Below are positions 1 to 64,000 of a stretch of DNA of 64,000 nucleotides, one piece after another (position 1 is the first letter of the stretch; each line of letters starts with the position of its first letter). Position numbers and translations under genes: made by a program. The notes under the pieces are model-generated. The model saw nothing but the letters and a program-made list of their open reading frames with translations. It was not told where the DNA came from and did no database searches. The DNA comes from a virus. Lineage: Duplodnaviria; Caudoviricetes. The stretch spans positions 64,001 through 128,000 of IMG/VR virus record IMGVR_UViG_3300025357_000008, one strand, 5' to 3'.

Positions 1-2
1 TC

Positions 3-467
3 ATGCACGTTCAAGGTGATTCCTATATACAAGTTGACGGTAATGTTAATCAGACTGTTGGTGGTGATATGATAACTCATGTTACCGGTAATGCTGAGAT
101 TATTGGTGAAGGTGATTTAGATATTTCAACAAATGGTGCGTTAACTCTTTCAGCAGACTCATTACTTTTAAATTCTGATTTGACTGTAAATGGTAGTGTA
201 ACAGCTCTAGGCGGTATTTCAGCAGTAAGTTCAATATCTTCTTCAACTGGTAGTATACTTGCACCTCTAGGTTCAGTTGCAGTCGGCCTTAAAGCATTGA
301 CACCTGCGGTTCTTGTACCAGGAAACATTTATGATGCAGGACCTTTAGCAACACCTGATACCTCAACACTTTCTGCATTAAGAACTTTCTACGATACACA
401 TACTCATATTGCAATTGGTTTAGGCTCACCAACAGCACCTCCAATACCATTAGACCCATCCGTTTAA
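3..467 (+). CDS. gp5: Baseplate central spike (gp5-like), C-terminal part; 5'-truncated by window edge
   Basis: VxGxxxxx octapeptide beta-helix repeats (VQGDSYIQ VDGNVNQT VGGDMITH VTGNAEII); C-terminal HTH motif; directly upstream of gp25. Confidence 0.8.
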   Translation: MHVQGDSYIQVDGNVNQTVGGDMITHVTGNAEIIGEGDLDISTNGALTLSADSLLLNSDLTVNGSVTALGGISAVSSISSSTGSILAPLGSVAVGLKALTPAVLVPGNIYDAGPLATPDTSTLSALRTFYDTHTHIAIGLGSPTAPPIPLDPSV

Positions 468-468
468 A

Positions 469-476
469 CATAAATA
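469..476 (+). promoter_or_regulatory. T4-type late promoter core CATAAATA
   Basis: Intergenic near-match to TATAAATA, 4 nt before the gp25 ATG. Confidence 0.65.
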
Positions 477-480
477 GAAA

Positions 481-870
481 ATGGCAAGTACAATTATATA
501 CTCAGACTTAGACTTACGTTTCCTTCCCAACCCGGTGACGGGCGATATATCTATGAGTTATAATGAGCAGGCAGTCATTCGTTCTATCAAAAATATTCTT
601 TATACTGCACCGTATGAAAGATTATTTGACCCAACAATCGGTAGCGGTCTACCAGCATTATTGTTTGAGCCAGTTTCACCACTTACCGCAAGTAGTATTG
701 AGGATGAAATTATCAGACTCATTTCAAATTATGAGCCAAGAGCAACAATTTATCAGTTAAACGTTTCTGCAAATGCAGACCAAGATAGTTTTCAAGTCAG
801 TCTTTCTGTTTTTATTGGTAATAATACGACACCGACTGCTATCAATCTAATACTTCAAAGGAATAGATAA
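481..870 (+). CDS. gp25: Baseplate wedge subunit gp25
   Basis: YSDLDL, SIKNILYT..YERLFDPTIGS and YEPRA motifs; 129 aa; between gp5 and gp6. Confidence 0.93.
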   Translation: MASTIIYSDLDLRFLPNPVTGDISMSYNEQAVIRSIKNILYTAPYERLFDPTIGSGLPALLFEPVSPLTASSIEDEIIRLISNYEPRATIYQLNVSANADQDSFQVSLSVFIGNNTTPTAINLILQRNR

Positions 871-2942: not shown

Positions 2943-5900
2943 TGATACAAAGTAATCAGAAAACATCGTTATTCATACCATCGCAGTTACCTGAGTATCT
3001 ATTAGATACTTCGGTATATGGGAATAACTTCGTAACGTTTTTACAAGCGTATTACGAATGGATGGAACTCGCTAATACTGCAAATGCTAATACAGTAACA
3101 GCAGACACTAACGGTACTCAAGGTGCTCTATATGCATCAAAGAGTCTATGGGATTATACAGATATCGACAATACTCTTGAAGGTTTTCAACAGTATTTCA
3201 TTAATGATTTCTTACAATACTTTCCAGCAGAATCTTTAATATCACCTACGACTGCGGTAAAAATTGCAAGACAATTGTACCAGTCTAAAGGTACTCCTGC
3301 ATCGTATCAATTTTTATTCAGAGTTTTGTTTGATTCAGACTTTGATTATTTCTATACAAAAGATGCCGTCCTTGCCGCATCTTCAGGTAAATGGTATGTA
3401 CCTAAGAGTATTCTTTTAGAAACATCAGATACAAACTTTCTTGCCGCAGTCAACTATAAAGTATTTGGTTTAATATCAAAATCATTTGCTACGATTGAAA
3501 ATGTTATTTTAGCTGACAATAAAATTGAAATTTTTATTTCTGATATTGAACGTTTGTTTCAATCAGGTGAATCAGTAACTATTGTAGATGCTTACAATCA
3601 ACCGGTTTACTTTTTAAATGGTAAAGTGGTACCAGCAGGCACATCTGGTGCAGAAACTTTAACTGCTGTTATTCTTGGTCAGATTAGTCAAATCAATATC
3701 AACCCAACAGCGAGAGGTCTTGGTTATAACGTAGCAGACCCTGTGATTGTATATGGTGGTTTGAATTCTAACGTTGCAAACCCTATCGGTGCAATTGCTG
3801 AAGTCGCTTCAGTTACAACAGGTTCTATTCAAGATATTACTGTTGTAAACGGTGGTTATGGATATTCAACATTTCCACCAAGCGGTACATCATTGTATCC
3901 AGGTAATGCAGTTTCATTAATCTCTATTACTGGTCAGCAAACATCAGGCGCAAATGCCACAGTATTTTCTGTAGCATCTGGTGGTGAGGCGACAATAACT
4001 ATACCTATTGATTCTATTGCAGTTTCTAATGGTTTTAGTATTGGTAACACATTAAGTTTCTTATCAGCAAACACAAGTGCAACTGCAAATGCAACACTTG
4101 CAAACGCACTAACATTCACGACAATACAAACTAACCCAATCGGCTCTGTTGTATTGAATAATGGTGGCGGTGGTATTAATTATGTTCCTGTAGCAACAGC
4201 ACAGTCACAGTATGTTTCAAACGACACTACAAACAATATTTTTGGTAGTATCAGTTCTTTAGGTATTCTTGCACCTATTCAGATTGCAAATACAGGAACA
4301 GGATACAGTAATAATGACACAATCGTATTTACCGGTGGCTGCGGTTACGGTGCAAATGCAAGAATTCGTGTTAATGCAAATGGTAGTATCATAAACGTAA
4401 TGTATCAAGCAGTTTCAGGTTTACCGTCTGGCGGCTTAGGATATATTGGTGGTGTTTTACCTAACGTTTCAATACAAACATCTACAGGTTCTAATGCTAC
4501 TATATACGTACCTGGCACACTTGGTTCTGGTGCAACATTCTCATTAACATTGAATCAGATTGGTGCAGTAAGTTTAATTAATGTACTGCAAGGCGGTGAA
4601 GATTATACTGGAACACCGAATGTATCATTAGTCGTACAAGATATCGTAGTCTCAAATCTTATCCCTGCACTTCTACCAGTATCTGGTGAGACCTTGTATC
4701 AAGGTGCAAACGTAAACGTTGCATCATATATCGCAACTGTTAACTCTATTTCATTGCTACAGCAAAACGGAAACCCTAGACAATCTGTTTATAATTTAAG
4801 AGTCTTCAATTATACATCACAACCTAATCCAACATTACCATTATTAATTAAAAATACAAATATTAATATGGCAATGGTTAATACTGCTTACGGTGCTACT
4901 CAGTATACACAGTCAGTTTATAATCAATATGGTGTAAGAAACTATGGTGACGGTAACGCAAGAGCATCAACAAAATATTTAAACGGTCTTGTGATTGGAC
5001 AAGGTCAATATCTAACATCATCAGGTCAACTAAGTTCTTATGATGTATTGCAGAGTAAAGACTATAATAATTTCACATATCAAATTACAGTTGAGAAAGC
5101 AATCTCTGATTATAGAAGTACTCTATTAAATCTATTGCACCCATCCGGTGTTAATTTAATTGGCAGATATGCGCTAAAATCTAACACAGTAGTTGATTAT
5201 GATATCGAAGATACACTAGCAACACAAGAATATTTGAACAAGATTATAGGCACAAATAACGTACAAGGTACGATGAACGTTGCAGACAATCAGTATGTCG
5301 CATCTGCTAATATATACTATCACGGTTATAATTATCAAGCAAACGATATTCTGACAATCTCTGGCGGTACAAGTGTATACCCTGCACAAATTAAAGTCTT
5401 AAGTGTATACGGTTCAGCAAATGACATCGGTTCATTTGTGGTAAGTAATGTCGGTAACTATAGCGTATTCCCAACAAATCCAGTTTCAGTTACTGGTGGG
5501 GCAGGTTCGACTGCACAGTTTAATCTGGCACCAGATTATCTAAACTACTCTGCAAATACAATCTCTATTGGTTATTTACCAACTGGTAACTATATAAACT
5601 ATTCTACGTTTGTAACTATGACAACCGCAAACAATTTCAATGTTGTTTCAGGTCTTGCTAATGTAAACTTTGCCGCTAATACAGTTACATTAACGGATAG
5701 TGTTTGGGTACGATTTGCGAATGTTGCTTATGGTACCGGTAACAGTAATTCAAGCATAATAAATATATCAAACGTATACACAGATGTATATAACATCATC
5801 AATGATGGTGTCTATTCAAACACTTCTTATCCGATAATTGATGTCATTCAAACGAATGATGTCTTAAGTAGTAATGGTTATTATATCGGTAAAGTTCAGT

Positions 5901-9008: not shown

Positions 9009-12000
9009 ATGCTGAATTTTAATGTCTCTCCATACTATGATGATTTTGACCCATCAAAGAACTACCATCGCATTTTATTTAAACCTGGTTATGCAGTTCA
9101 AGCACGAGAAGTAACACAAGCACAAACAATTTTACAGAATCAAATTTCTGATTTTGCATCTGCAATCTACTCAACAAACACACCGGTTTCAGGTGGGCAA
9201 GTTACAACAAACTTGCAATGTTATTATATTAAATTGAACACAACATACGGTTCAACAACAATTAAAGCATCAGACTTTTTAGGTAAAGTTATTACCGGTA
9301 ACGATGCAAATACGGCAACAATTCAAGCAAAAGTTATTGCAACAGCAGAGGCTACAGGTACTGGCGGTGCCGCAGGTGATCCACCAACATTAGTTGTATC
9401 ATACTTATCAGGACCACAGTTTGGTGATAATATGGTGTTGACAACAATTGACGGTTCAAATTTATTTGCGACTGTTCAAGCATCAACATCAACATCAATT
9501 TCAACAGGTCAGTCTTCTACAGCATCAGTTTCAAACGGTGTTTTCTATATCGTCAACGGCTATTCACAAGCGGCTGATGGAACAGAGTACTCAATCGGTA
9601 ACTTTGTAAACGTTTCTCCACAAACAATCATTCTCGATAAGTATGATAATACACCATCTTATCGTGTCGGCCTTGAAATCACAGAACAAATTATTGATTA
9701 CATCACAGATCCAGCATTATTAGATCCTGCTGTAGGTGCATCAAACTATCAAGCACCAGGTGCAGATAGATATCAAATAACTTTAACTCTAACAACATTA
9801 CCATTGACTCTTGGTAGTGATAGTCAGTTCATTGAATTGTTAAGAATTGATAACGGTAGTGTCGTAAAACAGAATGATACTACTGTGTATTCAGCAATTG
9901 ATGACTACTTCTCAAAACGAGATTTTGAAACAAATGGTGATTATGTTGTAGAAGATTTCAAACTTACACCGGTTGCAAATACAGTCAATTCGGCAAAATA
10001 TGACTTGGGTATTAGTAAAGGTGTTGCGTATGTTCAGGGCTATCGTGTCGAGAATCAATCACAATTAACATTGACTTCAGATAGAGCATTAGCAACATCA
10101 AATATTGCTGGTAGCGAAACATTTATTGATTATGGTAATTATTTAAATGTGGCTGGTGTTAATGGCGACTTCAATGTAACAACATTGCCAAAAATCAATA
10201 TTCATTGCGTTAATACGAATAATGTTGCTCAAGGACAAGGTAGCACAAAATACAACTCAACATTAGTTGGTACTGCTTTCTTAAGAAACTTACAGTTTCA
10301 ACAGGCTAATGGCGGCTCAAACACAGGCTCTTATGTTTTTAATGCATCAATATCAGATATATTAGTAAACACTTTAGGTGCTTATGGTAATTCTTCACTA
10401 TGTACATCAAACACGATTGGTGTTTTTGATACGACAGGTGAATTCTCAGGTGTTGCTAATGCCTATTATGGTGTAACATTGTCTGTTAATTCTGGTTCAA
10501 GTGTTGGTGATGTCAGAACAATTACCAATTATACAGTAAGCGGTAATAACAAATATTTTACAGTCAATCAACCATTCTCTGTTTTACCAGATGCATCATC
10601 AGCATTTACGTTGAATTTCAAGATTGGTGATGCCGATGCAATTGCTATTGCAAACGGTAGTTATTATCTAACTGCTGGTGCTAATGTTGATATTACCACC
10701 GGTAAAACTACCGGTCTATGGACAGGTCAAGCAATTCTTCAGAATCCTGGACAAACAGAGTTAATCTTTCCAATAGGTGCGCCATGGGTTCAAAACGTTT
10801 ATAGTACTAGCTATACTACTACTAAGATTTTCCGCTCTGGCGTTCTTTCTGGTTCATCTGGTCAGTTAAATTTAAGTCTTGGAAGTACACCTTATAAATT
10901 CATTCAAGGTTCTGGTGTAGGTTTTGTTGAAAACAATTTTAACATTGTCAATACTTCATCAGGGGCTTTATTAGATTTCACAACATCAGGCAACACAGTT
11001 GTTGTTAGTTCTGATGGTGTGACGGCAAACATTTCTTCGTCATATTATGCTGGTAATACTGTTGATGTTATTGCAACTGTAAATGTATACAACGGTGACA
11101 GTACATCTATTACAAAAGTTAAAACGACTGTTACAGGTAATAATACAGGTGTTAGTTCAACCGGTGGTACTTCAGGTACTCAACTCAATACAAATACGTA
11201 TGTCGATTTAAATAACGGTCAAGTCTTTATTTCTAAAGCAGGCGTTACAAATTCAAATTGCTTGTATATTTCCGATATTAGAAATATTGTTGCAATCTAT
11301 GATACTAAAAACGTCAACTTAATTACACCTTCAGAAATAAATGCAGGAAATATAATTGGCAACCCTTTGTATGACGTTACAAATCATTTTACATTAGACA
11401 ATGGTCAACGTGATACGTTCTATGATTTTGGTTATGTCAATCTAATTCCTGGTGCTCCTGGTATTATCGGTAACTTGATTGTTGTTTTGAACTACTACTC
11501 ACATACCGGTGGTGACGGATTCTTTACTGGTAATTCATACCCACAATCTGATTATACAATCATACCATCTTACACTTCAAAGTCTAGCGGTATCACATAT
11601 CAACTAAGAGATTCAGTTGACTTCAGACCTACAAGAGTTAATGCACAGACTTCTTACACTTGGAACTATACATCTAGCCCAACAATAAGCCAAAGTTCTG
11701 CTGGTGTTGCTATACCTAGAAACGGTAGTTACTTTAATAATTCTTATAATTTCTATCTTGGTAGAAAAGATAAACTTGTTCTTACAAAAGATAACAGCTT
11801 TAAGATTGTTGAAGGTGTACCATCAATTAATCCAAGACCACCAACAGAGCCAACAGGTTCTCTAGTTCTTGCAAATCTAACTTTAGATCCATATACTGCT
11901 ATTGTTGGTAATCAAACTGTTAATGGTCAGTCAAATCTTTCAATACAGAAAGTTGTTCATAAACGTTGGGCTAAGAGTGATATCACGGACTTAGAAACAA

Positions 12001-14219
12001 GAATCAATAACTTAGAATATTATTCTGCACTAAGTCAACTTGAAGCAACTGCCGCCTCAACCCAAGTATCAGATAGTAATGGTATTTCAAGACCAAACTA
12101 TGGTATTCTTGTTGATTCATTCACATCATTTGCTACAGCGGATACATACAATCCAGATTTTGCGGCAAACATCAATATTCGAACAAATCGTTTGTCTCCT
12201 GCCGCATTAGTTGATAACTATCAATTACAAAATCCTACAGTAATGGCCTCATTAGGTACATTAGCAAACACTTATGATTTTGCAATCTCTAGTATCTCTG
12301 GTACTGGAACAAACATCTTTACATTACCATATACTACAGCAAATCTTATTGTTCAACCTCTTGCAAGTAGTGCAGTATCAGTTAATCCTTTCAACGTTAT
12401 TGTTGACAAAGGTGTTGCATCGTTGACACCACCTATTGACAATTGGGTTGATAATCAACAAGTTGTGCCAGTAGTTACACAGACACAAGCCACAGCAGTT
12501 AATCAACAGGCTTTTGGTAAAACCTTGACTAACATGGGCGACTTTGCATCAATTCCTGGTACTTCAAGTGTAACAATTACATCATTGAATTCTACTGGAA
12601 ATACTGCAACATATGCAAGTCAATTAAGTACAACAACGTCTTCAATTAGCACACCAGCCGCATTGAATACTGTTAACGGATACTTGGTTAACGACACAAT
12701 TTTACCATATATTAGACCACAACAAATTATTGTTGAAGCAAAAGGTCTGTTAGCAAACCAAAACGTACATTGCTGGTTTGATGGTATAAATGTTGACAAG
12801 TATATGATTGCCCCAAACACAATCGAATTGCAGAATGTACATGGTTCTTTCCAAGTAGATGACATTATAGGTTATTATCAATCTGGTTCACAATCATTCT
12901 ATCCATCTGGTCGTGTTATGAACGTGTATAACTATCCAGGTACATCAAACACTAGATTGTATGTGTCAGACTTTATGAGACTTGCTAATAGAGCAAATTT
13001 AGCATCACCTCAGTTGTATAATGGTATGTTTGATGCTAATGGTGATTATATTGCCAACAGTTGGACCGCATATGGTACACCAGTAAATGCGTCCGTAATT
13101 TCTATGGCAACATCAGGTACAGTCTCTGGTGTTGGTGGTGCATACACGACAGCAGTAGGACCTACTTATAGCGGTAACTTATATAAAATGAACTATGGTG
13201 CACAGAACTTCTCAGATTTCTTAAACACAAATGGTGTTTGGGATGTAAGTAATGCCACTGGTTCATTAACAACATTTAATGCCACTTTCCCAATTTTCTT
13301 CCCAATAGGAACTGGAAACACATATGTAATGACTGCACAATGTAATGGTACTGCAACGGTTAGTGTTAACAATGCAACAATCGTAACATTATCAGCAGGA
13401 ACATATGGACAAAATCAACAAACTAAAGTCACATTTAACCCAACACAGAACGTATTAAGTAACATTAGTATTTCTGCTACATGTTCAGATGGTGTGCCAA
13501 GTATTGCAGTTGTTGTTACAGACCCAACTACAAATACCGTAATTTGGAACGCAACACAACCTCAAGGTATGACATATGCCGGTTCTGGTCAACAAATTGC
13601 AATGCCATATGGCGGTATATTATTTACCGGTGCAACAAAAGTTAAATTAGATCCTACAATATCAAGTACACTTGATTTCACGGGTTCACAAATTAACTTC
13701 TTTACAAAAGAAGTTACTCAAACAGAGTCATTGACTACATGGACTCCTCCACCAGCCACACCATCTGGAAGTTCTGGTGGTTCAACATCAATTGCAGGTG
13801 CACCAGGAAGTTGGTTCATACAATTAGATACTGCAATTTGGGGAGCAAATTCACCATGGACTAAAGTTGATTCGGCAATTGTACATGCCGGAACAGCAGT
13901 TCTTGGTGCTGTTAGCAACGTAGTAAATACTGTTTCCCATGATGTCACTAACATTGTAAACAAAGTTTCATCATGGTTCTCTGATAGACGTTTGAAACGC
14001 TCTATTAAATATATCAAGACACTTGATAATGGAATTAAAATTTACAGTTTCAAATATTTGTGGAGTAATCAAACCTTTGTTGGTGTGATGGCTCAAGATT
14101 TAATTGGTACTGAATTCGAATCTGCTATTAAAACACACATAGGTATCTACATAGTTGACTATAGTAAACTTGGTTTTAATATGATGACTCTTGAAGAATA
14201 TGAAGCAACAACCGTATAA
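9009..14219 (+). CDS. VrlC/DUF4815-like virion protein, N-terminal part, ending in a peptidase-S74-like intramolecular chaperone domain
   Basis: NVSPYYDDFDPSKNYHRILFKPGYAVQARE, APGADRY, LDNGQRD, RINNLEYY; C-terminal SDRRLK...GVMAQDL...VDYSKL. Confidence 0.82.
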   Translation: MLNFNVSPYYDDFDPSKNYHRILFKPGYAVQAREVTQAQTILQNQISDFASAIYSTNTPVSGGQVTTNLQCYYIKLNTTYGSTTIKASDFLGKVITGNDANTATIQAKVIATAEATGTGGAAGDPPTLVVSYLSGPQFGDNMVLTTIDGSNLFATVQASTSTSISTGQSSTASVSNGVFYIVNGYSQAADGTEYSIGNFVNVSPQTIILDKYDNTPSYRVGLEITEQIIDYITDPALLDPAVGASNYQAPGADRYQITLTLTTLPLTLGSDSQFIELLRIDNGSVVKQNDTTVYSAIDDYFSKRDFETNGDYVVEDFKLTPVANTVNSAKYDLGISKGVAYVQGYRVENQSQLTLTSDRALATSNIAGSETFIDYGNYLNVAGVNGDFNVTTLPKINIHCVNTNNVAQGQGSTKYNSTLVGTAFLRNLQFQQANGGSNTGSYVFNASISDILVNTLGAYGNSSLCTSNTIGVFDTTGEFSGVANAYYGVTLSVNSGSSVGDVRTITNYTVSGNNKYFTVNQPFSVLPDASSAFTLNFKIGDADAIAIANGSYYLTAGANVDITTGKTTGLWTGQAILQNPGQTELIFPIGAPWVQNVYSTSYTTTKIFRSGVLSGSSGQLNLSLGSTPYKFIQGSGVGFVENNFNIVNTSSGALLDFTTSGNTVVVSSDGVTANISSSYYAGNTVDVIATVNVYNGDSTSITKVKTTVTGNNTGVSSTGGTSGTQLNTNTYVDLNNGQVFISKAGVTNSNCLYISDIRNIVAIYDTKNVNLITPSEINAGNIIGNPLYDVTNHFTLDNGQRDTFYDFGYVNLIPGAPGIIGNLIVVLNYYSHTGGDGFFTGNSYPQSDYTIIPSYTSKSSGITYQLRDSVDFRPTRVNAQTSYTWNYTSSPTISQSSAGVAIPRNGSYFNNSYNFYLGRKDKLVLTKDNSFKIVEGVPSINPRPPTEPTGSLVLANLTLDPYTAIVGNQTVNGQSNLSIQKVVHKRWAKSDITDLETRINNLEYYSALSQLEATAASTQVSDSNGISRPNYGILVDSFTSFATADTYNPDFAANINIRTNRLSPAALVDNYQLQNPTVMASLGTLANTYDFAISSISGTGTNIFTLPYTTANLIVQPLASSAVSVNPFNVIVDKGVASLTPPIDNWVDNQQVVPVVTQTQATAVNQQAFGKTLTNMGDFASIPGTSSVTITSLNSTGNTATYASQLSTTTSSISTPAALNTVNGYLVNDTILPYIRPQQIIVEAKGLLANQNVHCWFDGINVDKYMIAPNTIELQNVHGSFQVDDIIGYYQSGSQSFYPSGRVMNVYNYPGTSNTRLYVSDFMRLANRANLASPQLYNGMFDANGDYIANSWTAYGTPVNASVISMATSGTVSGVGGAYTTAVGPTYSGNLYKMNYGAQNFSDFLNTNGVWDVSNATGSLTTFNATFPIFFPIGTGNTYVMTAQCNGTATVSVNNATIVTLSAGTYGQNQQTKVTFNPTQNVLSNISISATCSDGVPSIAVVVTDPTTNTVIWNATQPQGMTYAGSGQQIAMPYGGILFTGATKVKLDPTISSTLDFTGSQINFFTKEVTQTESLTTWTPPPATPSGSSGGSTSIAGAPGSWFIQLDTAIWGANSPWTKVDSAIVHAGTAVLGAVSNVVNTVSHDVTNIVNKVSSWFSDRRLKRSIKYIKTLDNGIKIYSFKYLWSNQTFVGVMAQDLIGTEFESAIKTHIGIYIVDYSKLGFNMMTLEEYEATTV

Positions 14220-14234
14220 CTTGGAAGAAAATAA

Positions 14235-16415: not shown

Positions 16416-16416
16416 T

Positions 16417-16635: not shown

Positions 16636-16643
16636 AGGTCCAA

Positions 16644-46217: not shown

Positions 46218-46221
46218 GATA

Positions 46222-49406: not shown

Positions 49407-49753
49407 TGCAAACAGCCGCACAACTTCCAGTATTACCGGTAGTATCTGAGAATACTACCTTTTACATGTCTGTTCAACCATCAACGCAAGTTGGTGGTAA
49501 AACAAGTTATGAGTTTGCGGCTACTTCATTAACATTTAATCCTTCAACAAATGTAGTAACGATGAATGTGCTTTCGACTTTAACACTCAATGCATTTACA
49601 TTAAATGCAGTCACATTAAATGCGGTTACTATGAATGTTACATCGAATTTATACACTGGTTCAATTAATATTTCGACAGGCTCAAACGTATTTGTAGGAA
49701 CAACAAGGGTTGAGTCTCAGATACCTCATCCATTTTTACTATCGTTTTTGTAG
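49406..49753 (+). CDS. Short linker protein ending in HPFLL
   Basis: LTFNPST motif; pentapeptide TLNAV repeats; ends IPHPFLLSFL-TAG. Confidence 0.68.
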   Translation: MQTAAQLPVLPVVSENTTFYMSVQPSTQVGGKTSYEFAATSLTFNPSTNVVTMNVLSTLTLNAFTLNAVTLNAVTMNVTSNLYTGSINISTGSNVFVGTTRVESQIPHPFLLSFL

Positions 49754-49762
49754 GAACAACTC

Positions 49763-50086
49763 ATGTTATCATATAGAGTTTTAGGTCAAGCAGTACCAGG
49801 AACAACAAATACCACATTGTATGCGGTATCGACTGGTGCGAATACTATTATTTCATCAATTCTAATTGCAAACCAAGGTGCTTCTCTCGCTACTTATCAA
49901 TTAGGTGTTGTACCTAACGGACAAACACTTTCAACAAAAAACTATATTGCTTATAGTGCAAACGTGCCAGCAAACGATACAATGACATTAACACCAGGTA
50001 TTACAATGGGTGCAAATGATGCTATTGTATGTTATGCTAATAATTCATCTGTTTCATTCTCAGTATTTGGTTGCGAAATATCATAA
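49763..50086 (+). CDS. ~110-aa adaptor-like virion protein, copy 3
   Basis: YRVLGQ..P....LYAV...TIISSILIANQ...FSVFGCEI. Confidence 0.75.
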   Translation: MLSYRVLGQAVPGTTNTTLYAVSTGANTIISSILIANQGASLATYQLGVVPNGQTLSTKNYIAYSANVPANDTMTLTPGITMGANDAIVCYANNSSVSFSVFGCEIS

Positions 50087-50101
50087 CAAAGGTGCATTGT
50101 T

Positions 50102-51214
50102 ATGGCAGTTATTAAAACAAAAAGACTCAGCACAAAAAATGTTGCCAACTTAGCCGATTCAAGTAAAAGCAGATTATCAGCATCTTGTATCAATAATACA
50201 TCAACAGCATATCCTGGCGGTCCCAGTGGAAGTACCGGTCCTGTAGGTGTTCCATTAACGTTTGTGATTGTTGCGGGTGGTGGTTCTGGTGCACAACGTT
50301 GGACTGGTGGTGGTGGAGGTGGTGGTGTTATTGTTGGTGCAGTAGCGGCCGCATCAAAAGGAACACCCTACGCAATAACAGTTGGTGGTGGAGGTGCCGC
50401 ACCTGTTTATCCAACAACCATATGTTATGCTTATACTTTCCGAGGCGTTAACTCAAGTGCATTTTGTGTTACAGCAATAGGTGGAGGTGGTGGTAAAGGT
50501 TATAGTTGTTACATACCAGCTCCTACAGGGGGTTGTGTAGCACCAGGTGGTTCAGGTGGCGGTGGTGGTGGACCTACTGGTCCTCCAACAGGTGTTGCAC
50601 CATTCCCTTATGCGAACAACCAAGGCGGTTCAGGTACTCAACCAGGACAACCAACACCATCCGGACCTGCTATAGTTTGGACCAATTACGGTAATCCAGG
50701 TGGTAATTATAATGGTGGAGGTGGTGGTGCTTCATCATCAGGATCAACAAGAACATTTACAGGAACTCCACAATTTCCAACACCAGGGAGTGCAGGTGGT
50801 TCCGGTCTGACCGTTTCAATAACAGGAAGTCCTTTCATCGTAGCTGGTGGTGGAGGTGCTGGTGGACGTTATGGTGCAACTCAACCACCTAACGGTTTCG
50901 TAGGAGGCCCTGGTGGTCCTGGAGGTGGTGGTAATGGTTCAGGTTATGGATGTGCATACCCAAGATTGGGAAGTCCGACACCATTACCAGGACAAAATGG
51001 CGGTACTAATACTGGAGGTGGAGGTGGTGCAGGCTCATGTAGAGCACCTATAACTCCTAGTATAGGTGGTGCAGGAGGTTCTGGTGTAGTGTATGTTTCT
51101 GTTCCAACTCCATTAGCTGGAACTGCTGGTCCGCCAAGCGTATTTACAAGTGGACCTGATGGTGCTGGAAATACATGGTTTAAGTTTACGAGTTCTGGTA
51201 CTTATACTGCTTAA
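50102..51214 (+). CDS. Glycine-rich putative adhesin, paralog 3
   Basis: IVAGGGSG, NTGGGGG, GGSGVV; C-terminus nearly identical to that of 26874. Confidence 0.72.
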   Translation: MAVIKTKRLSTKNVANLADSSKSRLSASCINNTSTAYPGGPSGSTGPVGVPLTFVIVAGGGSGAQRWTGGGGGGGVIVGAVAAASKGTPYAITVGGGGAAPVYPTTICYAYTFRGVNSSAFCVTAIGGGGGKGYSCYIPAPTGGCVAPGGSGGGGGGPTGPPTGVAPFPYANNQGGSGTQPGQPTPSGPAIVWTNYGNPGGNYNGGGGGASSSGSTRTFTGTPQFPTPGSAGGSGLTVSITGSPFIVAGGGGAGGRYGATQPPNGFVGGPGGPGGGGNGSGYGCAYPRLGSPTPLPGQNGGTNTGGGGGAGSCRAPITPSIGGAGGSGVVYVSVPTPLAGTAGPPSVFTSGPDGAGNTWFKFTSSGTYTA

Positions 51215-53888: not shown

Positions 53889-54302
53889 ATGGACAAACTT
53901 GATAAGAACATGACTGAAATATTTGATATTGAACCTAAAGCAACAGAAATTGTTAAGGTTGAAAAACCACAAGTACCTGTTGCAACTGAAGAACTCAAAC
54001 ACGACTTAGAAGATGCATATCAGCAGTCTAAAGATAATCTACAACATATCATAGACCAAGGTAAAGATGCAATGGAAGAAATTCTAAACATTGCAAAAAA
54101 CAGTCAGCACCCAAGAGCGTTTGAAGTTTACGGTACTCTTTTAAAAAATATGACTGAGGCAAACAAAGAACTTCTAAGCATACAGAAACAGATGAGAGAA
54201 ATTAGCGGTACAAAATCAGAAGCGGCTCAAACAACTATTGACAAAGCAGTTTTTGTAGGTACAACAGCAGACTTTAATAAGTTGCTAAAAGGTAAAGTGT
54301 AA
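53889..54302 (+). CDS. gp16: Terminase small subunit gp16
   Basis: HPRAFEV motif, VFVGTTAD tail; upstream of gp17. Confidence 0.92.
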   Translation: MDKLDKNMTEIFDIEPKATEIVKVEKPQVPVATEELKHDLEDAYQQSKDNLQHIIDQGKDAMEEILNIAKNSQHPRAFEVYGTLLKNMTEANKELLSIQKQMREISGTKSEAAQTTIDKAVFVGTTADFNKLLKGKV

Positions 54303-55987
54303 TGGCCGTACAAAATAAAGATTCCTACCGTGACAATCCGTTACTTAAAAAAGTAGGCGTTGAACACCCCTATACACAAGAACAAGCAGAAGAATATGCA
54401 AAGTGTGCTTCAGACCCAGTATACTTTGCAATGAATTATATTAAAATTGTTAACGTTGATGAAGGTCTGATACCGTTTAAGATGTGGGACTTTCAAAAAG
54501 AAATGATTAAAGTCTACCATGAAAATCGTTTCTCAATTACAAAATGTCCTCGTCAGGTTGGTAAAACAACAACATCAGTTGCTTATCTTCTTTGGTCTAC
54601 AATCTTTACCGATTCACAATCAGTTGCAGTTCTAGCTAACAAAGGTTCTCTTGCACGAGACATCTTAGCTAAGTATCAACTAGCATATGAAAACTTACCT
54701 ATGTGGCTACAGCAAGGTGTTGTTACATGGAACAAAGGTAACGTAGAACTTGAAAATGGTTCTAAGATTATTGCCGCTTCAACATCAAGTTCTGCAATTC
54801 GAGGTGGATCATTTAACATTGTATTCTTAGATGAATTCGCTTTCGTTCCTAATAATATTGCTGAAGAATTCTTTAACTCTGTTTATCCTGTAATCTCTTC
54901 CGGTAAAACATCTAAGATTATTATAGTTTCGACACCTAACGGTATGAATCTATTCTACAAGTTATGGATGGATGCAATCGGTAAGAAGAACGGTTATAAA
55001 CCTTTTGAAATTCACTGGTCAATGGTGCCTGGTAGAACTGAGGCATGGAAAGAAGAAACAATTCGTAACACTTCTTTACGTCAGTTCCAGCAAGAGTTTG
55101 AAACAGAATTCTTAGGCTCGTCAAATACTTTGATTTCTGGCTACAAGTTAGCACAGTTAAGGTACATGGATGCGATTGCAGAACATGACCTGATGAAGAT
55201 ATACGAGCATCCTATTAAGACAGACGGTATTAAATACGTCAAAGATAGACTGTATTGTATTGTCGTAGACGTTTCAGAAGGCAAAAACTTAGACAGTTCT
55301 GCTTTCTCAGTCATAGATATATCAGAGTTACCATATAAACAGGTGGCAACTTATAAGAGTTCTTCTATTACACCGCTATTGTTCCCAACAGTTATCTACA
55401 ATGCGGCTCGTTATTACAATGATGCTTACGTACTGGTAGAAATAAACAACACACCACAGATTGCAGATACTTTACATGCCGATTTAGAATACGAAAATCT
55501 ATGGAAAGTATTTACCGGTAACAAGAAACCACAACAATTGTCTGCCGGTTTTGCTAGAGGAGTTCAATTAGGACTTAAAATGTCACCACAAGTTAAGAAG
55601 ATTGGTACTTCTAACTTGAAAACTTTGATTGAAGGTGACAAACTACTCATCAATGACTTTGCAACATACTCAGAATTGACAACATTCGTAGAAACTAAGA
55701 ACACTTTTGCCGCTGAACAGGGTGCAAATGATGACTTAGTGATGGGTTTGGTGATGTTTGGGTGGGTCACAACACAACCATATTTCAAAGAAATCGTTGC
55801 CCATGACCTAAGAAAACAAGTCCAATTAGAAAATATGAATCAGTTTGACGATGAAACAGTCGTTGAACCTATCATGGATGACGGTATGTCACACAATTTA
55901 GAACTTGTCGATGGCGACTTATGGGAAGTTGCTGACGGCAGTTCGGTATACAGCAGATTTATGCGAGATGCTATCAACAGTCTGTAA
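54302..55987 (+). CDS. gp17: Terminase large subunit gp17
   Basis: Walker A PRQVGKTT, Walker B IVFLDEFAF, STPNG, DDLVM nuclease motif. Confidence 0.97.
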   Translation: MAVQNKDSYRDNPLLKKVGVEHPYTQEQAEEYAKCASDPVYFAMNYIKIVNVDEGLIPFKMWDFQKEMIKVYHENRFSITKCPRQVGKTTTSVAYLLWSTIFTDSQSVAVLANKGSLARDILAKYQLAYENLPMWLQQGVVTWNKGNVELENGSKIIAASTSSSAIRGGSFNIVFLDEFAFVPNNIAEEFFNSVYPVISSGKTSKIIIVSTPNGMNLFYKLWMDAIGKKNGYKPFEIHWSMVPGRTEAWKEETIRNTSLRQFQQEFETEFLGSSNTLISGYKLAQLRYMDAIAEHDLMKIYEHPIKTDGIKYVKDRLYCIVVDVSEGKNLDSSAFSVIDISELPYKQVATYKSSSITPLLFPTVIYNAARYYNDAYVLVEINNTPQIADTLHADLEYENLWKVFTGNKKPQQLSAGFARGVQLGLKMSPQVKKIGTSNLKTLIEGDKLLINDFATYSELTTFVETKNTFAAEQGANDDLVMGLVMFGWVTTQPYFKEIVAHDLRKQVQLENMNQFDDETVVEPIMDDGMSHNLELVDGDLWEVADGSSVYSRFMRDAINSL

Positions 55988-55998
55988 AAGTGCTGGTG

Positions 55999-56006
55999 CA
56001 TAAATA
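55999..56006 (+). promoter_or_regulatory. Late promoter core CATAAATA
   Basis: Intergenic, upstream of gp18; SD AAGGAG. Confidence 0.7.
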
Positions 56007-56058
56007 CCTTTATTGGTATAATCTGCCAAAAAGAACAAAATAATTCAAGGAGAAAACA

Positions 56059-57753
56059 ATGGCGATTCAAATCTCTCCAGGCGTAATCACTACTGAGATT
56101 GACTTAACTACAGTCGTTCCATCAGTACTTACGACTGCTGGTGCATTTGCTGGTGACTTCCAATGGGGTCCAGCCAATCACATTATGCTGGTAGACAGCG
56201 AAACAACTTTAGTAAACACATTTGGTCCTCCAGATGCAAACTCAGCAACTGCTTTCTTTACTGCCGCTAACTTCTTAGCATACGGTAATAATCTGAACGT
56301 AGTTCGTGCTGTAGGTGCTTTAAGTAACAATGCAGTTCAGAACTCTAGTTCACCTGGTGTTCAAATTATTAATGAAGAAGTTTACTTAGTAAATTATTTC
56401 AATGGTTCAGCAAACTCTTATGGTTCTTTTGCCGCAAGATATCCTGGTACACTAGGAAACTCAATTCAAGTTTCAGTTTGCGATACTTCAACACAGTTCT
56501 CATCATGGCAATATAAATCATTGTTTTCTTCAGCACCAGGAACTTCTGCTTCTGTAGCACAAGTCGGTGGTTCACAAGATGAGATGCACATTGTTGTTGC
56601 AGACGTTGGTGGTTTAATTACTGGTAACTCTGGACAAGTTCTTGAAACATTTGGTTTTGTTTCTAAAGCAGGTGATGCACAAATTAACGGCAATTCAAAT
56701 TACTGGAAACAAGTAATATTTGACAGGTCACAATACATCTATGCTATGGACCCACCAGAATATTCAGCAACTCATGCAACTTGGGGTTCAAATTCTGCAA
56801 ACACAACGTTCGTACAACTTTCAAACGTTGAAAATGCTTTCTTATCTCTTGGTACAAATCCAAAACCATCAGATGCAAATATTGAAAATGCTTATGGTTT
56901 ATTCGCTAACAAAGAGCATATCGACATTTCTTTAGTTCTAACTGGTGATGCAAACAATACAGTTCAAAACTATGTTTATAGCAACATCATTTCAACAAGA
57001 CAAGATTGCGTTGGATTCTTCTCGCCACCAGCTAACACAGTTGTAAACAATTGGGGTAGCGAAGCAAGTGCTGTTACAAATTATTTCCAAAGCACATTGA
57101 ATATTCAATCATCATATTTGGTTGCCGATTCAAACTGGAAATATCAATTTGACAAATACAACAACGTATATCGTTGGATTCCATTGAACGGTGATATTGC
57201 CGGTCTATGTGTAAACACAGATGCAGTTGCAGACCCATGGTTCTCACCAGCTGGTTTCAACCGTGGTGCAATTAAGAACGCTATCAAACTAGCATGGAAT
57301 CCTACGAAACCTGCAAGAGATACTTTGTATGCGGCAGGTATTAATCCAATCGTATCATTCCCTGGACAAGGTATCGTTCTATACGGTGACAAGACTCTAC
57401 AATCTAAGCCTTCTGCTTTTGACAGAATCAACGTTCGTAGATTGTTCTTAGTACTTGAGAAAGCAATTTCTACAGCCGCAAGATACTCATTGTTTGAATT
57501 CAATGATTCGTTTACACAAGCACAATTTGTTAACTTGGTAACACCATTCTTACGTGACGTTCAAGGTCGCCGTGGTATTACAAACTTCTACGTACAATGT
57601 GATTCAACTAATAACACACCACAAGTTATTAATGCAAATCAGTTTGTTGGTAGCATTTATGTTGTACCAAATCGTTCTACGAATTTCATTCAGTTGAACT
57701 TTGTTGCTGTAGATACAGGTGTTGACTTCTCAACAGTTGTTGGCTCAGTATAA
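56059..57753 (+). CDS. gp18: Tail sheath protein gp18
   Basis: SPGV..TEIDLT, FQWGP, WFSPAGFNRG, FDRINVRRLF, FEFND. Confidence 0.97.
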   Translation: MAIQISPGVITTEIDLTTVVPSVLTTAGAFAGDFQWGPANHIMLVDSETTLVNTFGPPDANSATAFFTAANFLAYGNNLNVVRAVGALSNNAVQNSSSPGVQIINEEVYLVNYFNGSANSYGSFAARYPGTLGNSIQVSVCDTSTQFSSWQYKSLFSSAPGTSASVAQVGGSQDEMHIVVADVGGLITGNSGQVLETFGFVSKAGDAQINGNSNYWKQVIFDRSQYIYAMDPPEYSATHATWGSNSANTTFVQLSNVENAFLSLGTNPKPSDANIENAYGLFANKEHIDISLVLTGDANNTVQNYVYSNIISTRQDCVGFFSPPANTVVNNWGSEASAVTNYFQSTLNIQSSYLVADSNWKYQFDKYNNVYRWIPLNGDIAGLCVNTDAVADPWFSPAGFNRGAIKNAIKLAWNPTKPARDTLYAAGINPIVSFPGQGIVLYGDKTLQSKPSAFDRINVRRLFLVLEKAISTAARYSLFEFNDSFTQAQFVNLVTPFLRDVQGRRGITNFYVQCDSTNNTPQVINANQFVGSIYVVPNRSTNFIQLNFVAVDTGVDFSTVVGSV

Positions 57754-61678: not shown

Positions 61679-62269
61679 ATGGCTAACAAATATACTTACC
61701 AAGTTTTAAGAGATACTACAACAGATGCTGTGATTAAACTCACAGGCAGTTTTGATGGTACTGGACAAGAAGCAAACACATCTAGAATTCAAGCAAATAG
61801 TCTTGCTGGTGCGATTGCAACTAACGGTTATCTTGTAGCAAATTCTACAAATTCTTTTGCTAATACACCTTTATCATATTACGACCTTCAGTTAACCGGT
61901 TTAAAATATTTTGTCAACTTCCCAACAAATACTGTTGGTGGTGTCGAAATCTTTTGGTCTGGCAACGGCACATCATTCTCAACACAGTATGCAAACTCTG
62001 CAACGATAGTGCATTTGAATGGTCAAGGTGAGATGGGTATGGGAGAACAATTACCATCTATTCTAAATAATTCTGGTGCAACAGCAAACGGATATATTAT
62101 ACCAGCAAACGTTGGTCTTGGTGATATCGGTGTTACTACACAAGGTGCAACTGCAAACTGTGCGTATACATTAATATTGCAAGTGAGAAAGAATAACGCT
62201 CAATATCAACGTGGTCAGTTCAATGATCCGGCCGCATTTAACTACGGAATATACAAACAAATACCATGA
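61679..62269 (+). CDS. Hypothetical virion protein, tandem paralog B
   Basis: Similar to 61164; ATGA overlap with gp21. Confidence 0.7.
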   Translation: MANKYTYQVLRDTTTDAVIKLTGSFDGTGQEANTSRIQANSLAGAIATNGYLVANSTNSFANTPLSYYDLQLTGLKYFVNFPTNTVGGVEIFWSGNGTSFSTQYANSATIVHLNGQGEMGMGEQLPSILNNSGATANGYIIPANVGLGDIGVTTQGATANCAYTLILQVRKNNAQYQRGQFNDPAAFNYGIYKQIP

Positions 62270-62910
62270 AACTAATCAAAGAAATTACAGAATCGGTAAA
62301 CTATATTACCGAAGAAAAAGATGGAAAGAAAACTCTATTCATCGAAGGTCCTTTTTTAGTTACTGAAAGAGAAAACAAGAATAAACGTCTGTATGAACAC
62401 GGTACAATGCTTAAAGAAGTTAAGCGTTATACTGAAGAGTACATCAATAAAAACCGTGCATACGGTGAATTAGGTCATCCAGACACACCTTCGATTAACT
62501 TAGACCGTGTATCACACATCATTACTTCTCTCAAAGAAGACGGTCATCAGTTTATCGGAAGAGCAAAAATACTTGATACCCCAATGGGACAGATTGCCAG
62601 AAACCTTATCGAAGGTGGTGGTCAACTAGGAGTCTCATCTCGTGGTATGGGTTCATTGAAGAATGTTAATGGAGTCAACATTGTTCAAGACGATTTTTAT
62701 CTAGCCACAGCGGCAGATATTGTAGCTGATCCATCAGCACCAGGTGCGTTTGTACAAGGTATAATGGAAGGCAAAGAGTGGATGTTAGTAGACGGTGTAT
62801 GGACAGAACGTCAATTAGAAGAATCTAAGAAGATGATTCGTCAAGCTACACCTAGAGAGATTGAAGCTGTCGGCTTGAAAATCTTTGAAAACTTCATCAA
62901 AAAATTATAA
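62266..62910 (+). CDS. gp21: Prohead protease gp21
   Basis: GELGHP, INLDRVSH, LGVSSRGMGSL, ADIVADPSAP.AFV.GIME. Confidence 0.97.
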   Translation: MKLIKEITESVNYITEEKDGKKTLFIEGPFLVTERENKNKRLYEHGTMLKEVKRYTEEYINKNRAYGELGHPDTPSINLDRVSHIITSLKEDGHQFIGRAKILDTPMGQIARNLIEGGGQLGVSSRGMGSLKNVNGVNIVQDDFYLATAADIVADPSAPGAFVQGIMEGKEWMLVDGVWTERQLEESKKMIRQATPREIEAVGLKIFENFIKKL

Positions 62911-62912
62911 AA

Positions 62913-62920
62913 TATAAATA
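62913..62920 (+). promoter_or_regulatory. Late promoter TATAAATA (perfect)
   Basis: Exact consensus upstream of gp22; SD AGGAG. Confidence 0.85.
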
Positions 62921-62950
62921 TACCAATACGAATCATAGGAGATTTACAAA

Positions 62951-64000
62951 ATGGGAAAATTCAATCTGTCAGATGCCGCTAAAGCTATTTTGAACGAAGG
63001 CTCAAAAGAGACTTTAGAAGGTAACGTAAAACAAAAGATGGGTCAAAGAGGATCCGACAAGCACCCAAGCGGTGAAGTTGGAAAAGATGCCGTTAAGCCA
63101 AATATTGCTTACGGTTCTAAATCTGCTGGTATGGTAGGTCAATCACCAGAAGAAATGGATGATGCATTACCAGATTACTTAAAAGGCACACCAACAGCAA
63201 CAGCACCAGGTGCAACACCACCTGTAGGTTCAGAAAAAGACGGTGTTGGTTATTCTAAGCCAAAAGGTCAACCACAAGAAACAATGGGACGCAAAGACAT
63301 TATGGTACCTGCACAAGATACAGCTAATCAATACGATGCTATCCGTGACCGTGTTGCATCAAAATTAGCAAAACAAACAATGAAGCCAAATCCAGGTGCT
63401 ACATTCCAATCATATGGTGAAGGTATTGACCTTTCTGATGACGTAAATGCGTTGCTAGAAGGTGAATCTTTATCTGAAGAATTCAAATTAAAAGCAACAA
63501 CAATCTTTGAAGCCGCTGTTACATCACGCATCGAAGCAATTGTTGAAGAAGTTGAAGCAAGTTTAGTAGAACAATACGAAGCTGGTATCGAACAAATCAA
63601 AGAAGAACTAGCAGAAAAACTAGACCAGTATATTGATTACTTTGCAGAACAATACATGATTCAAAACGAATTGGCAATTGTTTCCGGTCTACGTGCAGAA
63701 ATTGCCGAAGACTTTATGACAAGCCTGCGTAACGTATTCATGGAACACAATATTGACATTCCAGAAGAGCAAGTTCAAGTTGTCGAAGAGTTGACAACAA
63801 GAGTTGAAGAACTAGAACAAGCCTTGGATGAAGAAGTCAAAAACGCTGTTGCTTTAAAGAGAGCACTAAGCGAACAAGTAAAAATTGAGGCTATCCACAC
63901 AGCTTGTGAAGGCCTAACTCAGACTCAGGAAGAAAAATTAAAATCACTCGCAGAGGGTGTTGAATTTACTACTGAAGAAGAATTTAATGCTAAACTAAAC
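62951..64000 (+). CDS. gp22: Prohead core scaffold gp22; 3'-truncated, absent from the ORF track
   Basis: Manual translation MGKFNLSDAAKAILNEG...LSEEFKLKATTIFEAAV...; open to the window end; follows gp21. Confidence 0.9.
   Translation, partial: MGKFNLSDAAKAILNEGSKETLEGNVKQKMGQRGSDKHPSGEVGKDAVKPNIAYGSKSAGMVGQSPEEMDDALPDYLKGTPTATAPGATPPVGSEKDGVGYSKPKGQPQETMGRKDIMVPAQDTANQYDAIRDRVASKLAKQTMKPNPGATFQSYGEGIDLSDDVNALLEGESLSEEFKLKATTIFEAAVTSRIEAIVEEVEASLVEQYEAGIEQIKEELAEKLDQYIDYFAEQYMIQNELAIVSGLRAEIAEDFMTSLRNVFMEHNIDIPEEQVQVVEELTTRVEELEQALDEEVKNAVALKRALSEQVKIEAIHTACEGLTQTQEEKLKSLAEGVEFTTEEEFNAKLN

What the first reader, a model, noticed from the sequence alone, without database searches (positions are those of the whole stretch)
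1..64000. GCWGC nearly absent; Ala-Ala forced into rare codons
Seen: single alanines mostly use GCA/GCT, but in every Ala-Ala pair I read the first codon is GCC or GCG. Examples: GCG GCC GCT AAT GCC GCT near 20452, GCG GCG GCT near 20713, GAA GCC GCT in gp22, ACA GCG GCA in gp21. I found no GCAGC and one GCTGC (4338-4342, in GGCTGC) in a window with very many Ala-Ala pairs. Established: GCWGC is the TseI/ApeKI site and GCNGC is the Fnu4HI site. Inference: strong selection by a host restriction system, acting on both core and variable genes. This implies the fibre modules have long circulated in hosts with the same defence.
Basis: partly seen in the sequence, partly recalled or inferred. Interest (0 to 1): 0.72.

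Follow-up and report, generated by a model that had tools for sequence, protein, structure and literature searches.

The report
Phage genome purged of GCWGC sites
This uncultured freshwater T4-like phage has rewritten its codons so that the five-letter word GCWGC, a restriction-enzyme target, is almost gone from its DNA; this is a very clean new example of a long-known phage trick for dodging DNA-cutting enzymes.

Summary
The window has 0 GCAGC and 1 GCTGC, against 79-120 expected. The whole 170-kb phage genome has 2, against 144-209 expected (z = -27 against synonymous-codon shuffles). All 146 Ala-Ala pairs in the window start with GCC or GCG, whereas 87% of other alanines use GCA or GCT. The purge covers all three reading frames, both strands, intergenic DNA, and core and fibre genes alike. 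GCSGC is enriched, so the target is TseI/ApeKI-type or BbvI-type, not Fnu4HI.

Relatives show the trait is changeable. Two complete relatives carry 264 and 354 sites. Only 22 of 210 classifiable related loci are purged, and the trait changed at least 6 times on a gene tree. At shared Ala-Ala positions relatives have GCA/GCT where this phage has GCC/GCG.

The best reading is restriction-site avoidance driven by a GCWGC-cutting enzyme of an unidentified host. A phage tmRNA hints at a betaproteobacterium. No phage nuclease tracks the purge.

GCWGC is one of at least 25 purged motifs. All 16 surviving sites in purged DNA are GGCWGC or GCWGCC, and this flank rule is unexplained.

The phenomenon is known, and this scan has already reported GCWGC purges in at least 19 other phage genomes.

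The parts
1..64000 (.). Whole window is almost free of GCWGC (1 site)
   Evidence: GCAGC 0, GCTGC 1. Expected 79 (Markov) or 120 (synonymous shuffle). GCSGC 159.
4338..4342 (+). The only surviving GCWGC in the window: GCTGC inside GGT GGC TGC GGT (Gly-Cys, second reading frame), with a G just before it (GGCTGC)
   Evidence: It lies in the 1055-aa baseplate-region gene 2942-6109.
9009..51214 (+). Fibre/adhesin gene block, Ala-rich, with no GCWGC
   Evidence: 0 observed against 88.4 expected under synonymous shuffling (for example 22333-26871: 0 against 20.6; 20206-22329: 0 against 12.6). Gene identities.
20452..20469 (+).
   Evidence: exact match at 20452.
20713..20721 (+).
   Evidence: exact match at 20713.
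54302..57753 (+). Terminase large subunit and tail sheath genes. At conserved Ala-Ala positions unpurged relatives have GCA/GCT-GCN and this phage has GCC/GCG-GCN.
   Evidence: for example relative GCAGCT, here GCCGCT, both Ala-Ala. Gene identities.
62707..62715 (+).
   Evidence: sequence match at 62707; ORF coordinates.
63509..63517 (+).

Best explanation
This is restriction-site avoidance. The lineage of this lytic T4-like (Kyanoviridae-like) freshwater phage replicates in hosts that carry a DNA-cutting defence specific for GCWGC. That defence is most likely an orthodox Type II enzyme of the TseI/ApeKI kind, or a BbvI-like enzyme reading GCAGC on either strand.

The phage DNA is not protected at these sites, so each site is a liability. 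Variants that lost sites by silent changes were fixed until about 250-350 sites fell to 2. Ala-Ala pairs (GCW-GCN) were the main source of sites, so they were rewritten as GCC-GCN or GCG-GCN. CAG and CTG were replaced in the G|CWG|C context, and AGC and TGC after NGC.

A parallel purge of CGCG also forbids GCC-GCG, which leaves 7 of the 16 Ala-Ala codon pairs in use.

Shown here: the depletion, how it is encoded, its independence of reading frame, and its patchy distribution among relatives. Inferred: that a host enzyme is the selective agent, and which enzyme type it is.
For: 1. Size and specificity. The genome has 2 sites against 209 +/- 7.6 (z = -27), while the sister word GCSGC is enriched (283 against 74). 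The central W is therefore what is being discriminated.

2. Independence of translation. All three frames, both strands and non-coding DNA are purged. Ala before other G-starting codons keeps GCA/GCT.

3. Silent recoding. At aligned positions where unpurged relatives have GCWGC, this phage never keeps the site. In a fifth to two-fifths of cases the amino acids are identical, with GCA/GCT changed to GCC/GCG, CAG to CAA, or TGC to TGT.

4. Lineage-specific and repeated. Complete relatives G001 and G002 have 264 and 354 sites. Of 249 related loci, 22 are purged and 188 are not. The trait needs at least 6 changes on the methyltransferase tree. Each relative has its own further purged words: GAAGAC and CTCTTC in G001, ACGT in G002. 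This is what differing host defence repertoires would produce.

5. GCWGC is a real enzyme target. TseI cuts G^CWGC (PMC3643589). GCWGC m4C methylation is reported in a freshwater Chloroflexi (PMC6329791) and in Microcystis panniformis (PMC4730716).

6. Company. CGCG 0 against 83, CGWCG 2 against 60, and 20 six-base palindromes absent.

7. Precedent. Near-complete site loss occurs in about a tenth of phage genomes, mostly non-temperate phages, and nearly always for orthodox Type II sites (PMC6286503).

8. No protection found. The genome has no C5 methylase and no DpdA/TGT gene.
Against: The host is unknown, so no cognate enzyme has been shown.

The phage carries its own DNA methyltransferase of unknown specificity (526 aa, TSPPY motif).

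Some co-purged words are also purged in cultured relatives that infect SAR11 and OM43: CGCG, GATC outside GG/CC flanks and, in the two SAR11 phages but not in the OM43 phage Melnitz, CASTG. Not every purge in this clade need therefore reflect the current host's enzymes, and that weakens the analogy.

All surviving GCWGC sites are flanked GGCWGC/GCWGCC. A plain Type II enzyme does not predict this.

GCWGC purges recur in many unrelated aquatic phages of this scan, so a commoner cause than host-strain R-M is conceivable.
Confidence: 0.7

Rival explanations
1. Self-avoidance of a phage-borne (or mobile-element-borne) nuclease. The phage encodes a GCWGC-cutting enzyme without a partner methylase, for example to destroy host DNA, and stays safe by having no sites.
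For: Eighty of the 221 genes of this phage have no homologue in two unpurged complete relatives, and many have unknown function. The patchy, repeatedly gained distribution would also fit a mobile gene.
Against: PADLOC and Pfam scans of 123 further proteins find no restriction-endonuclease family. The nucleases that are present are not specific to purged DNA. The TnsA-like gene occurs in 60 unpurged and 7 purged loci, and the Cas4-like PD-(D/E)XK gene has homologues in G001/G002. The lineage-specific 380-aa insert after the clamp loader is absent from the independently purged locus L008. Two apparently purge-specific genes turned out to be fast-evolving baseplate/fibre paralogues. Only parts of the independent purged lineages could be examined.
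Confidence: 0.1
2. A host defence other than an orthodox Type II enzyme reads GCAGC as an asymmetric word. Candidates are a Type IIS (BbvI-like) enzyme, a Type III enzyme, or another methylation-based system.
For: GCWGC is identical to GCAGC on either strand, so the sequence cannot tell the two apart. Both surviving sites in the genome are GCTGC on the + strand, i.e. in the same orientation, which a Type III system would tolerate.
Against: Two sites in one orientation has a chance probability of 0.5. In the survey PMC6286503, avoidance is very rarely observed for Type III sites and not observed for Type I or IIG sites. Complete loss in both orientations is more than a Type III system requires.
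Confidence: 0.13
3. A non-selective or translational cause: codon-pair bias against GCA/GCT-GCN, mutational decay of methylated sites, or an assembly artefact.
For: Most sites would fall in Ala-Ala pairs, so a codon-pair effect could mimic part of the signal.
Against: The depletion is equally complete in the other two frames and in non-coding DNA. Two unpurged sister phages in which such pairs were counted use GCA/GCT-GCN freely: G001 has 264 sites and G002 354. The replacements are third-position W-to-S changes, not the C-to-T products of deamination. The protein sequences are intact, so this is not an assembly effect.
Confidence: 0.02

Closest known systems
Restriction-site (short palindrome) avoidance in non-temperate dsDNA phages, as surveyed by Rusinov et al. 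2018 (PMC6286503). Classical cases recalled from my own knowledge, not checked here: the GATC-free Staphylococcus phage K, and Sharp 1986.
   Same: Near-total loss of a restriction-enzyme target in a lytic phage, achieved by synonymous codon choice, lineage-specific, and accompanied by loss of other palindromes.
   Different: The host and enzyme are unknown here. The phage is uncultured. The purge is extreme (99%) for a 5-bp degenerate site that sits in the commonest way of writing Ala-Ala. Survivors follow a GG/CC flank rule that classical cases do not describe.
TseI / ApeKI (G^CWGC) systems and BbvI (GCAGC 8/12); GCWGC methylases such as M.AbaBS3I (PMC6329791), and the GCWGC m4C motif of Microcystis panniformis (PMC4730716)
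   Same: The purged word is exactly their recognition sequence, including discrimination of W from S at the centre.
   Different: No such gene was found in or linked to this phage. The methylome examples come from organisms that are not shown to be hosts (Chloroflexi at 61% GC; a cyanobacterium whose GAATTC and GATATC motifs this phage does not avoid).
Non-translational selection on local codon usage (review PMC8410138)
   Same: Motif avoidance overrides global codon preference at specific codon pairs.
   Different: Here the effect is all-or-none: 253 of 254 Ala-Ala pairs.
GCWGC purges already reported by this scan in at least 19 other uncultured aquatic phage genomes (for example e1-5660294, e1-5367353, e1-5337658)
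   Same: Same word, same Ala-Ala recoding, and in several cases the same GGCWGC/GCWGCC survivors.
   Different: This case lies in a freshwater Kyanoviridae-like T4 clade. Here the trait could be mapped on a tree (at least 6 changes) and compared with two complete unpurged sisters.

Membership tests
Restriction-site avoidance in phages | The depleted word is a known restriction/modification target | tested here: met
   TseI cuts G^CWGC (PMC3643589). GCWGC m4C methylation is reported in freshwater bacteria.
Restriction-site avoidance in phages | Significant under-representation against composition-aware and codon-aware nulls | tested here: met
   2 observed against 144 (Markov), 165 (order 2) and 209 +/- 7.6 (synonymous shuffle).
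Restriction-site avoidance in phages | Depletion independent of reading frame, strand and coding status | tested here: met
   all three frames are purged, and intergenic DNA has 0 against about 8 expected.
Restriction-site avoidance in phages | Sites removed mainly by silent substitutions, with proteins conserved | tested here: met
   orthologous Ala-Ala, Gln, Cys-Cys and Ser-Ser positions are recoded; the Ala-Ala dipeptide is only mildly scarcer (observed/expected 0.70 against 0.85 in unpurged relatives).
Restriction-site avoidance in phages | The pattern differs among related phages in step with the host defence repertoire | tested here: inconclusive
   The pattern does differ sharply among relatives, but their hosts are unknown.
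Restriction-site avoidance in phages | The host encodes the cognate endonuclease | not testable with these tools
   The host is unidentified. The only hints are a permuted tmRNA that best matches the Betaproteobacteria model and two CTGT-N8-ACAG boxes 64 bp apart.
Orthodox Type IIP (TseI/ApeKI) rather than Type IIS/III target | Palindromic reading of the site, rather than an asymmetric GCAGC | tested here: inconclusive
   GCWGC and GCAGC-on-either-strand are the same set of sequences. The literature prior favours orthodox Type II.
Fnu4HI-type (GCNGC) target | All four central bases depleted | tested here: not met
   GCSGC is enriched: 283 against 74.
Self-avoidance of a phage-encoded restriction-like nuclease | A nuclease gene that co-occurs with the purge | tested here: not met
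   There is no REase family hit. The TnsA-like and Cas4-like nucleases also occur in unpurged relatives. Coverage of the independent purged lineages was partial.
Protection by the phage's own methyltransferase (cause of the GG/CC flank rule) | The flank rule is found only where the methyltransferase is present | tested here: not met
   HTVC008M and the complete relative G002 show the GATC flank rule without any PF01555 gene.

The most novel reading that the evidence does not exclude
The GCWGC purge may not be a simple one-host, one-enzyme story. The same word is purged in many unrelated aquatic phages. Here every survivor (16 of 16 across purged relatives) is GGCWGC or GCWGCC, and the same outer-base-repeated rule governs the survivors of GATC, CASTG, GAATGC and CTGCAG, including in cultured HTVC008M.

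This would fit an unrecognised, widespread property of these phages' DNA: a modification or other shield at GG/CC steps that blunts many nucleases. Alternatively it would fit an unrecognised class of nuclease whose action depends on the flanks. On either reading the purged-word spectrum is a readable negative print of that system.
Probability: 0.15. Interest if true: 0.7.

Novelty: new member of a known kind. Interest (0 to 1): 0.35.

Why it matters
This is a textbook-clean case of how a defence system shapes codon choice. One 5-bp word dictates the spelling of essentially every Ala-Ala pair in a 170-kb genome.

The trait switches on and off among close relatives, so it could serve as a host-linking marker for an abundant but uncultured freshwater phage clade once lake methylomes or host genomes are available.

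It does not reveal a new principle, and the scan has found the same purge repeatedly. The more interesting loose end is the GG/CC flank rule, which this case confirms. This case also separates the rule from the one obvious candidate, the phage's own methyltransferase.

Tried and rejected
- A megablast search of 10 kb against cultured phages gave no match. The phage is known only from metagenomes.
- The genome search would not take GCWGC as a pattern because it is too short, and it draws no 'relatives' for a virus record.
- DNA hypermodification as the reason for, or an alternative to, the purge: the genome has no TGT/DpdA gene and no C5 methylase. It has ThyX and RNR, so it probably uses ordinary bases.
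- The 526-aa TSPPY methyltransferase as the shield behind the flank rule is rejected. The rule is present in phages that lack the gene.
- The TnsA-like endonuclease (genome 58715-59155) as a GCWGC nuclease is rejected. It is present in 60 unpurged loci.
- Genes 55216-56601 and 53240-55216 looked purge-specific. They are fast-diverging paralogues with a shared N-terminal domain, and that domain is also found in unpurged relatives. They sit next to baseplate genes.
- Microcystis as host on methylome grounds is not supported. This phage does not avoid GAATTC or GATATC, and its tmRNA is of the beta type.
- The Chloroflexi CL500-11 group (GCWGC m4C) is an unlikely host on GC content, 61% against 37%.
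- Looking up the IMG sample numbers in the literature found nothing.
- A GG/CC 'rescue' of GCWGC like the one seen for GATC holds only weakly: 2 sites survive of 51 expected in flanked contexts.
Full report
**What the DNA is.** The window is bases 64001-128000 of a single 170,261-bp virus record. IMG/VR calls it linear and CheckV rates it 100% complete. GC content is 37.1%.

It is a T4-like myovirus. The window holds the gp6-like baseplate wedge, a long run of fibre/adhesin genes, terminase, sheath, portal and scaffold. The rest of the genome holds gp23, UvsW, gp32, RNR, ThyX, clamp and clamp loader, 24 tRNA genes and a tmRNA.

The nearest cultured phages are only 60-64% identical in the major capsid protein. 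They are Pelagibacter phages Mosig and HTVC008M, Methylophilales phage Melnitz, a Stenotrophomonas phage and cyanophages (gp6). Hundreds of metagenomic relatives exist.

- The window has no GCAGC and one GCTGC (4338, inside GGCTGC), but 55 GCGGC and 104 GCCGC.
- Expected GCWGC in the window is 79 by maximal-order Markov and 120 when synonymous codons are shuffled within each gene.
- The whole genome has two sites, at genome positions 68338 and 138883. Expected values are 144, 165 or 209 +/- 7.6. The z of -27 makes this the most depleted 5-mer in the genome.

**The codon claim is exact.**
- All 146 Ala-Ala pairs in the window begin with GCC (100) or GCG (46).
- Alanine before a non-alanine codon uses GCA or GCT 87% of the time.
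- Genome-wide, 253 of 254 Ala-Ala pairs begin with GCC or GCG.
Before GA, GG and GT codons, GCA plus GCT still make up 69-73%.

**It is a DNA-level purge, not a translational one.**
- In the third reading frame, CAG and CTG are never used between a codon ending in G and one starting with C (39 CAA, 0 CAG), although they are used freely elsewhere.
- In the second frame, NGC-WGC occurs once.
- Intergenic DNA and RNA genes (11 kb) have 0 sites against about 8 expected.
- The fibre block 9009-51214 has 0 against 88 expected. The other window genes have 1 against 32, and the rest of the genome 1 against 89.
- GCSGC is enriched 2-4-fold because it takes over the Ala-Ala pairs. The selective agent therefore distinguishes W from S at the centre, which excludes Fnu4HI-type GCNGC.
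- Because CGCG is also absent (0 against 83), GCC-GCG is never used.

**Relatives show that sites were removed and that the trait is changeable.**
- Two complete relatives were fetched whole. G001 (methyltransferase 75% identical) has 264 GCWGC sites. G002 (portal 81% identical) has 354.
- At aligned positions where these and other unpurged relatives have a site, this phage never keeps it. Where the amino acids are the same, the difference is silent: GCAGCT becomes GCCGCT, ATGCAGCCA becomes ATGCAACCA, TGCTGC becomes TGTTGT.
- 249 related loci were gathered with three marker genes and one fibre gene. Of these, 22 are purged (observed/expected at most 0.25 with at least 4 expected) and 188 are not.
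- On a tree of the shared methyltransferase, the trait needs at least 6 changes.
- The immediate lineage of this phage (at least 87% identity in the markers) is purged throughout, and it appears in about ten different samples.
- Each relative has its own additional missing words: GAAGAC, CTCTTC and AGATCT in G001; ACGT in G002.

**The fibre inference.** The two closest homologues of fibre gene 20206-22329 (61-64% identity) lie in purged DNA: L089 has 0 against 44 expected, and L090 has 2 against 29. Of the seven more distant homologues, six (38-44% identity) lie in unpurged DNA with 6-31 sites each (L091-L096). The seventh, L097 (39% identity), lies in purged DNA with 3 sites against 17 expected. 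So these modules do travel with purged genomes. But because the purge has arisen repeatedly between phages only 20-25% apart in protein sequence, 'long' co-circulation is not implied.

**Mechanism.** The best explanation is classical restriction-site avoidance.
- TseI cuts G^CWGC (PMC3643589).
- GCWGC m4C methylation is reported in a Lake Biwa Chloroflexi (PMC6329791) and in Microcystis panniformis (PMC4730716).
- A survey of about 4000 phages found near-complete site loss in roughly a tenth of genomes. It was mostly in non-temperate phages and almost always involved orthodox Type II sites (PMC6286503).
- GCWGC equals GCAGC on either strand, so a BbvI-like enzyme cannot be excluded.
- The genome has no C5 methylase and no DpdA gene, and it has ThyX. 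Nothing therefore suggests blanket base modification, which fits a phage that must lose sites instead.

**The phage-borne nuclease rival.**
- PADLOC and Pfam scans found no restriction-endonuclease family.
- The TnsA-like and Cas4-like nucleases also occur in unpurged relatives.
- Two genes that looked purge-specific are fast-evolving structural paralogues.
- Coverage of the independent purged lineages was partial, so this rival keeps about 10%.

**Host.** The host is unknown. The phage's permuted tmRNA best matches the Rfam Betaproteobacteria model (RF01850, 140.5 bits, full length; tag peptide ANDELFALAA). Two perfect CTGT-N8-ACAG boxes lie 64 bp apart. Both are weak hints of a betaproteobacterial host. 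The Melnitz paper shows that phage tmRNAs usually, but not always, track the host class (PMC9004378).

**Context beyond the finding.** GCWGC is one of many purged words.
- CGCG: 0 against 83.
- CGWCG: 2 against 60.
- GATC: 134 against 489.
- AGCT: 142 against 382.
- CASTG: 32 against 170.
- GAATGC: 24 against 88.
- Twenty 6-bp palindromes are absent, for example AAGCTT 0 against 39 and ATCGAT 0 against 35. GAATTC and GATATC are normal.

**A flank rule emerges.**
- Of 134 GATC sites, 131 are GGATC or GATCC. HGATCD has observed/expected 0.01 and GGATCD 0.74.
- Most surviving CASTG and all surviving GAATGC and CTGCAG sites likewise have their outer G or C repeated just outside the site.
- For GCWGC the rescue is weak in this genome: HGCWGCD 0 against 158, GGCWGCD 1 against 47, GGCWGCC 1 against 4.5.
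- Nevertheless, all 16 distinct surviving GCWGC sites in this genome plus the 22 purged loci are flanked in this way, and half are flanked on both sides. Among 2394 sites in unpurged relatives the figures are 28.6% flanked and 2.7% flanked on both sides (P = 2e-9).
- The obvious candidate shield is the phage's 526-aa methyltransferase with a TSPPY motif. It is not required. HTVC008M (HGATCD 0 against 108, GGATC 28 against 34) and the complete relative G002 (0 against 383; 189 against 203) follow the rule without any such gene.
- The cause remains open.

**Cross-host purges.** CGCG and unflanked GATC are also purged in all three cultured relatives that infect SAR11 and OM43. CASTG is purged in the two SAR11 phages but only mildly under-represented in the OM43 phage Melnitz. 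Some purges in this clade may therefore not reflect the present host's enzymes.

**Verdict.** The phenomenon is a known one, and this scan has already reported the same purge in at least 19 other phage genomes.

Noticed in passing
whole window and genome; for example window 1-64000: Sites that begin or end with G/C and are otherwise purged survive only when that outer base is repeated just outside the site. GATC: 131 of 134 are GGATC/GATCC. CASTG: 26 of 29 are CCASTG/CASTGG. GAATGC: 24 of 24 are GAATGCC or GGAATGC. CTGCAG: 5 of 5. CGCG and CGWCG get no such rescue. AGCT, which has A/T ends, shows no such rule.
   Followed up: partly
genome 136970-138550 (L001:325-1905), outside the window: A 526-aa DNA methyltransferase (PF01555, motif TSPPYF, about 290-aa unknown N-terminal part). 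It has more than 1500 metagenomic homologues at 57-75% identity on 140-180 kb contigs and no close homologue in cultured phages. Its specificity is unknown. It is not needed for the flank rule.
   Followed up: partly
L259, L260, L261 (HTVC008M, Mosig, Melnitz), and G001, G002: CGCG is completely absent from this phage, from two complete relatives, and from 50-kb pieces of three cultured relatives whose hosts belong to different classes (SAR11 and OM43). This is a clade-wide purge that crosses hosts.
   Followed up: partly
genome 48653-49001 (L084:12653-13001), outside the window: A phage-encoded permuted (two-piece) tmRNA that best matches Rfam beta_tmRNA (140.5 bits), with tag peptide ANDELFALAA. 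This is a possible clue to a betaproteobacterial host.
   Followed up: partly
genome 145276-152272 (L087:276-7272), outside the window: 24 tRNA genes. The only tRNA-Ala is UGC, so the GCC codon forced on two thirds of Ala-Ala pairs presumably depends on a host tRNA.
   Followed up: no
genome 138883 (gene 138649-138936, a winged-helix HTH_39 protein just after the methyltransferase): The second surviving GCWGC of the genome, and the only GCT-GCC Ala-Ala pair. It is flanked on both sides (GGCTGCC) and is conserved in the close relative L002.
   Followed up: partly
genome 53240-56601, minus strand (L084:17240-19213 and L085:1216-2598): Two adjacent paralogous genes (658 and 461 aa) next to baseplate genes. 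They share an N-terminal region of about 170 aa and diverge very fast: 41-49% identity even among otherwise roughly 90%-identical relatives. They are probably host-recognition parts.
   Followed up: partly
G001 and G002 (complete relatives): Each relative has its own private purges. G001: GAAGAC 6 against 69, CTCTTC 14 against 72, AGATCT 0 against 18. G002: ACGT 153 against 411, TCATGA 0, ATCGAT 0. The purged-word spectrum could serve as a fingerprint of host defence repertoires across this clade.
   Followed up: no
genome 142418-143560 (L086:15418-16557): A 380-aa ORF of unknown function inserted after the clamp-loader gene. It is found only in this phage's immediate lineage, and is absent from 29 unpurged loci and from the purged locus L008.
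   Followed up: partly
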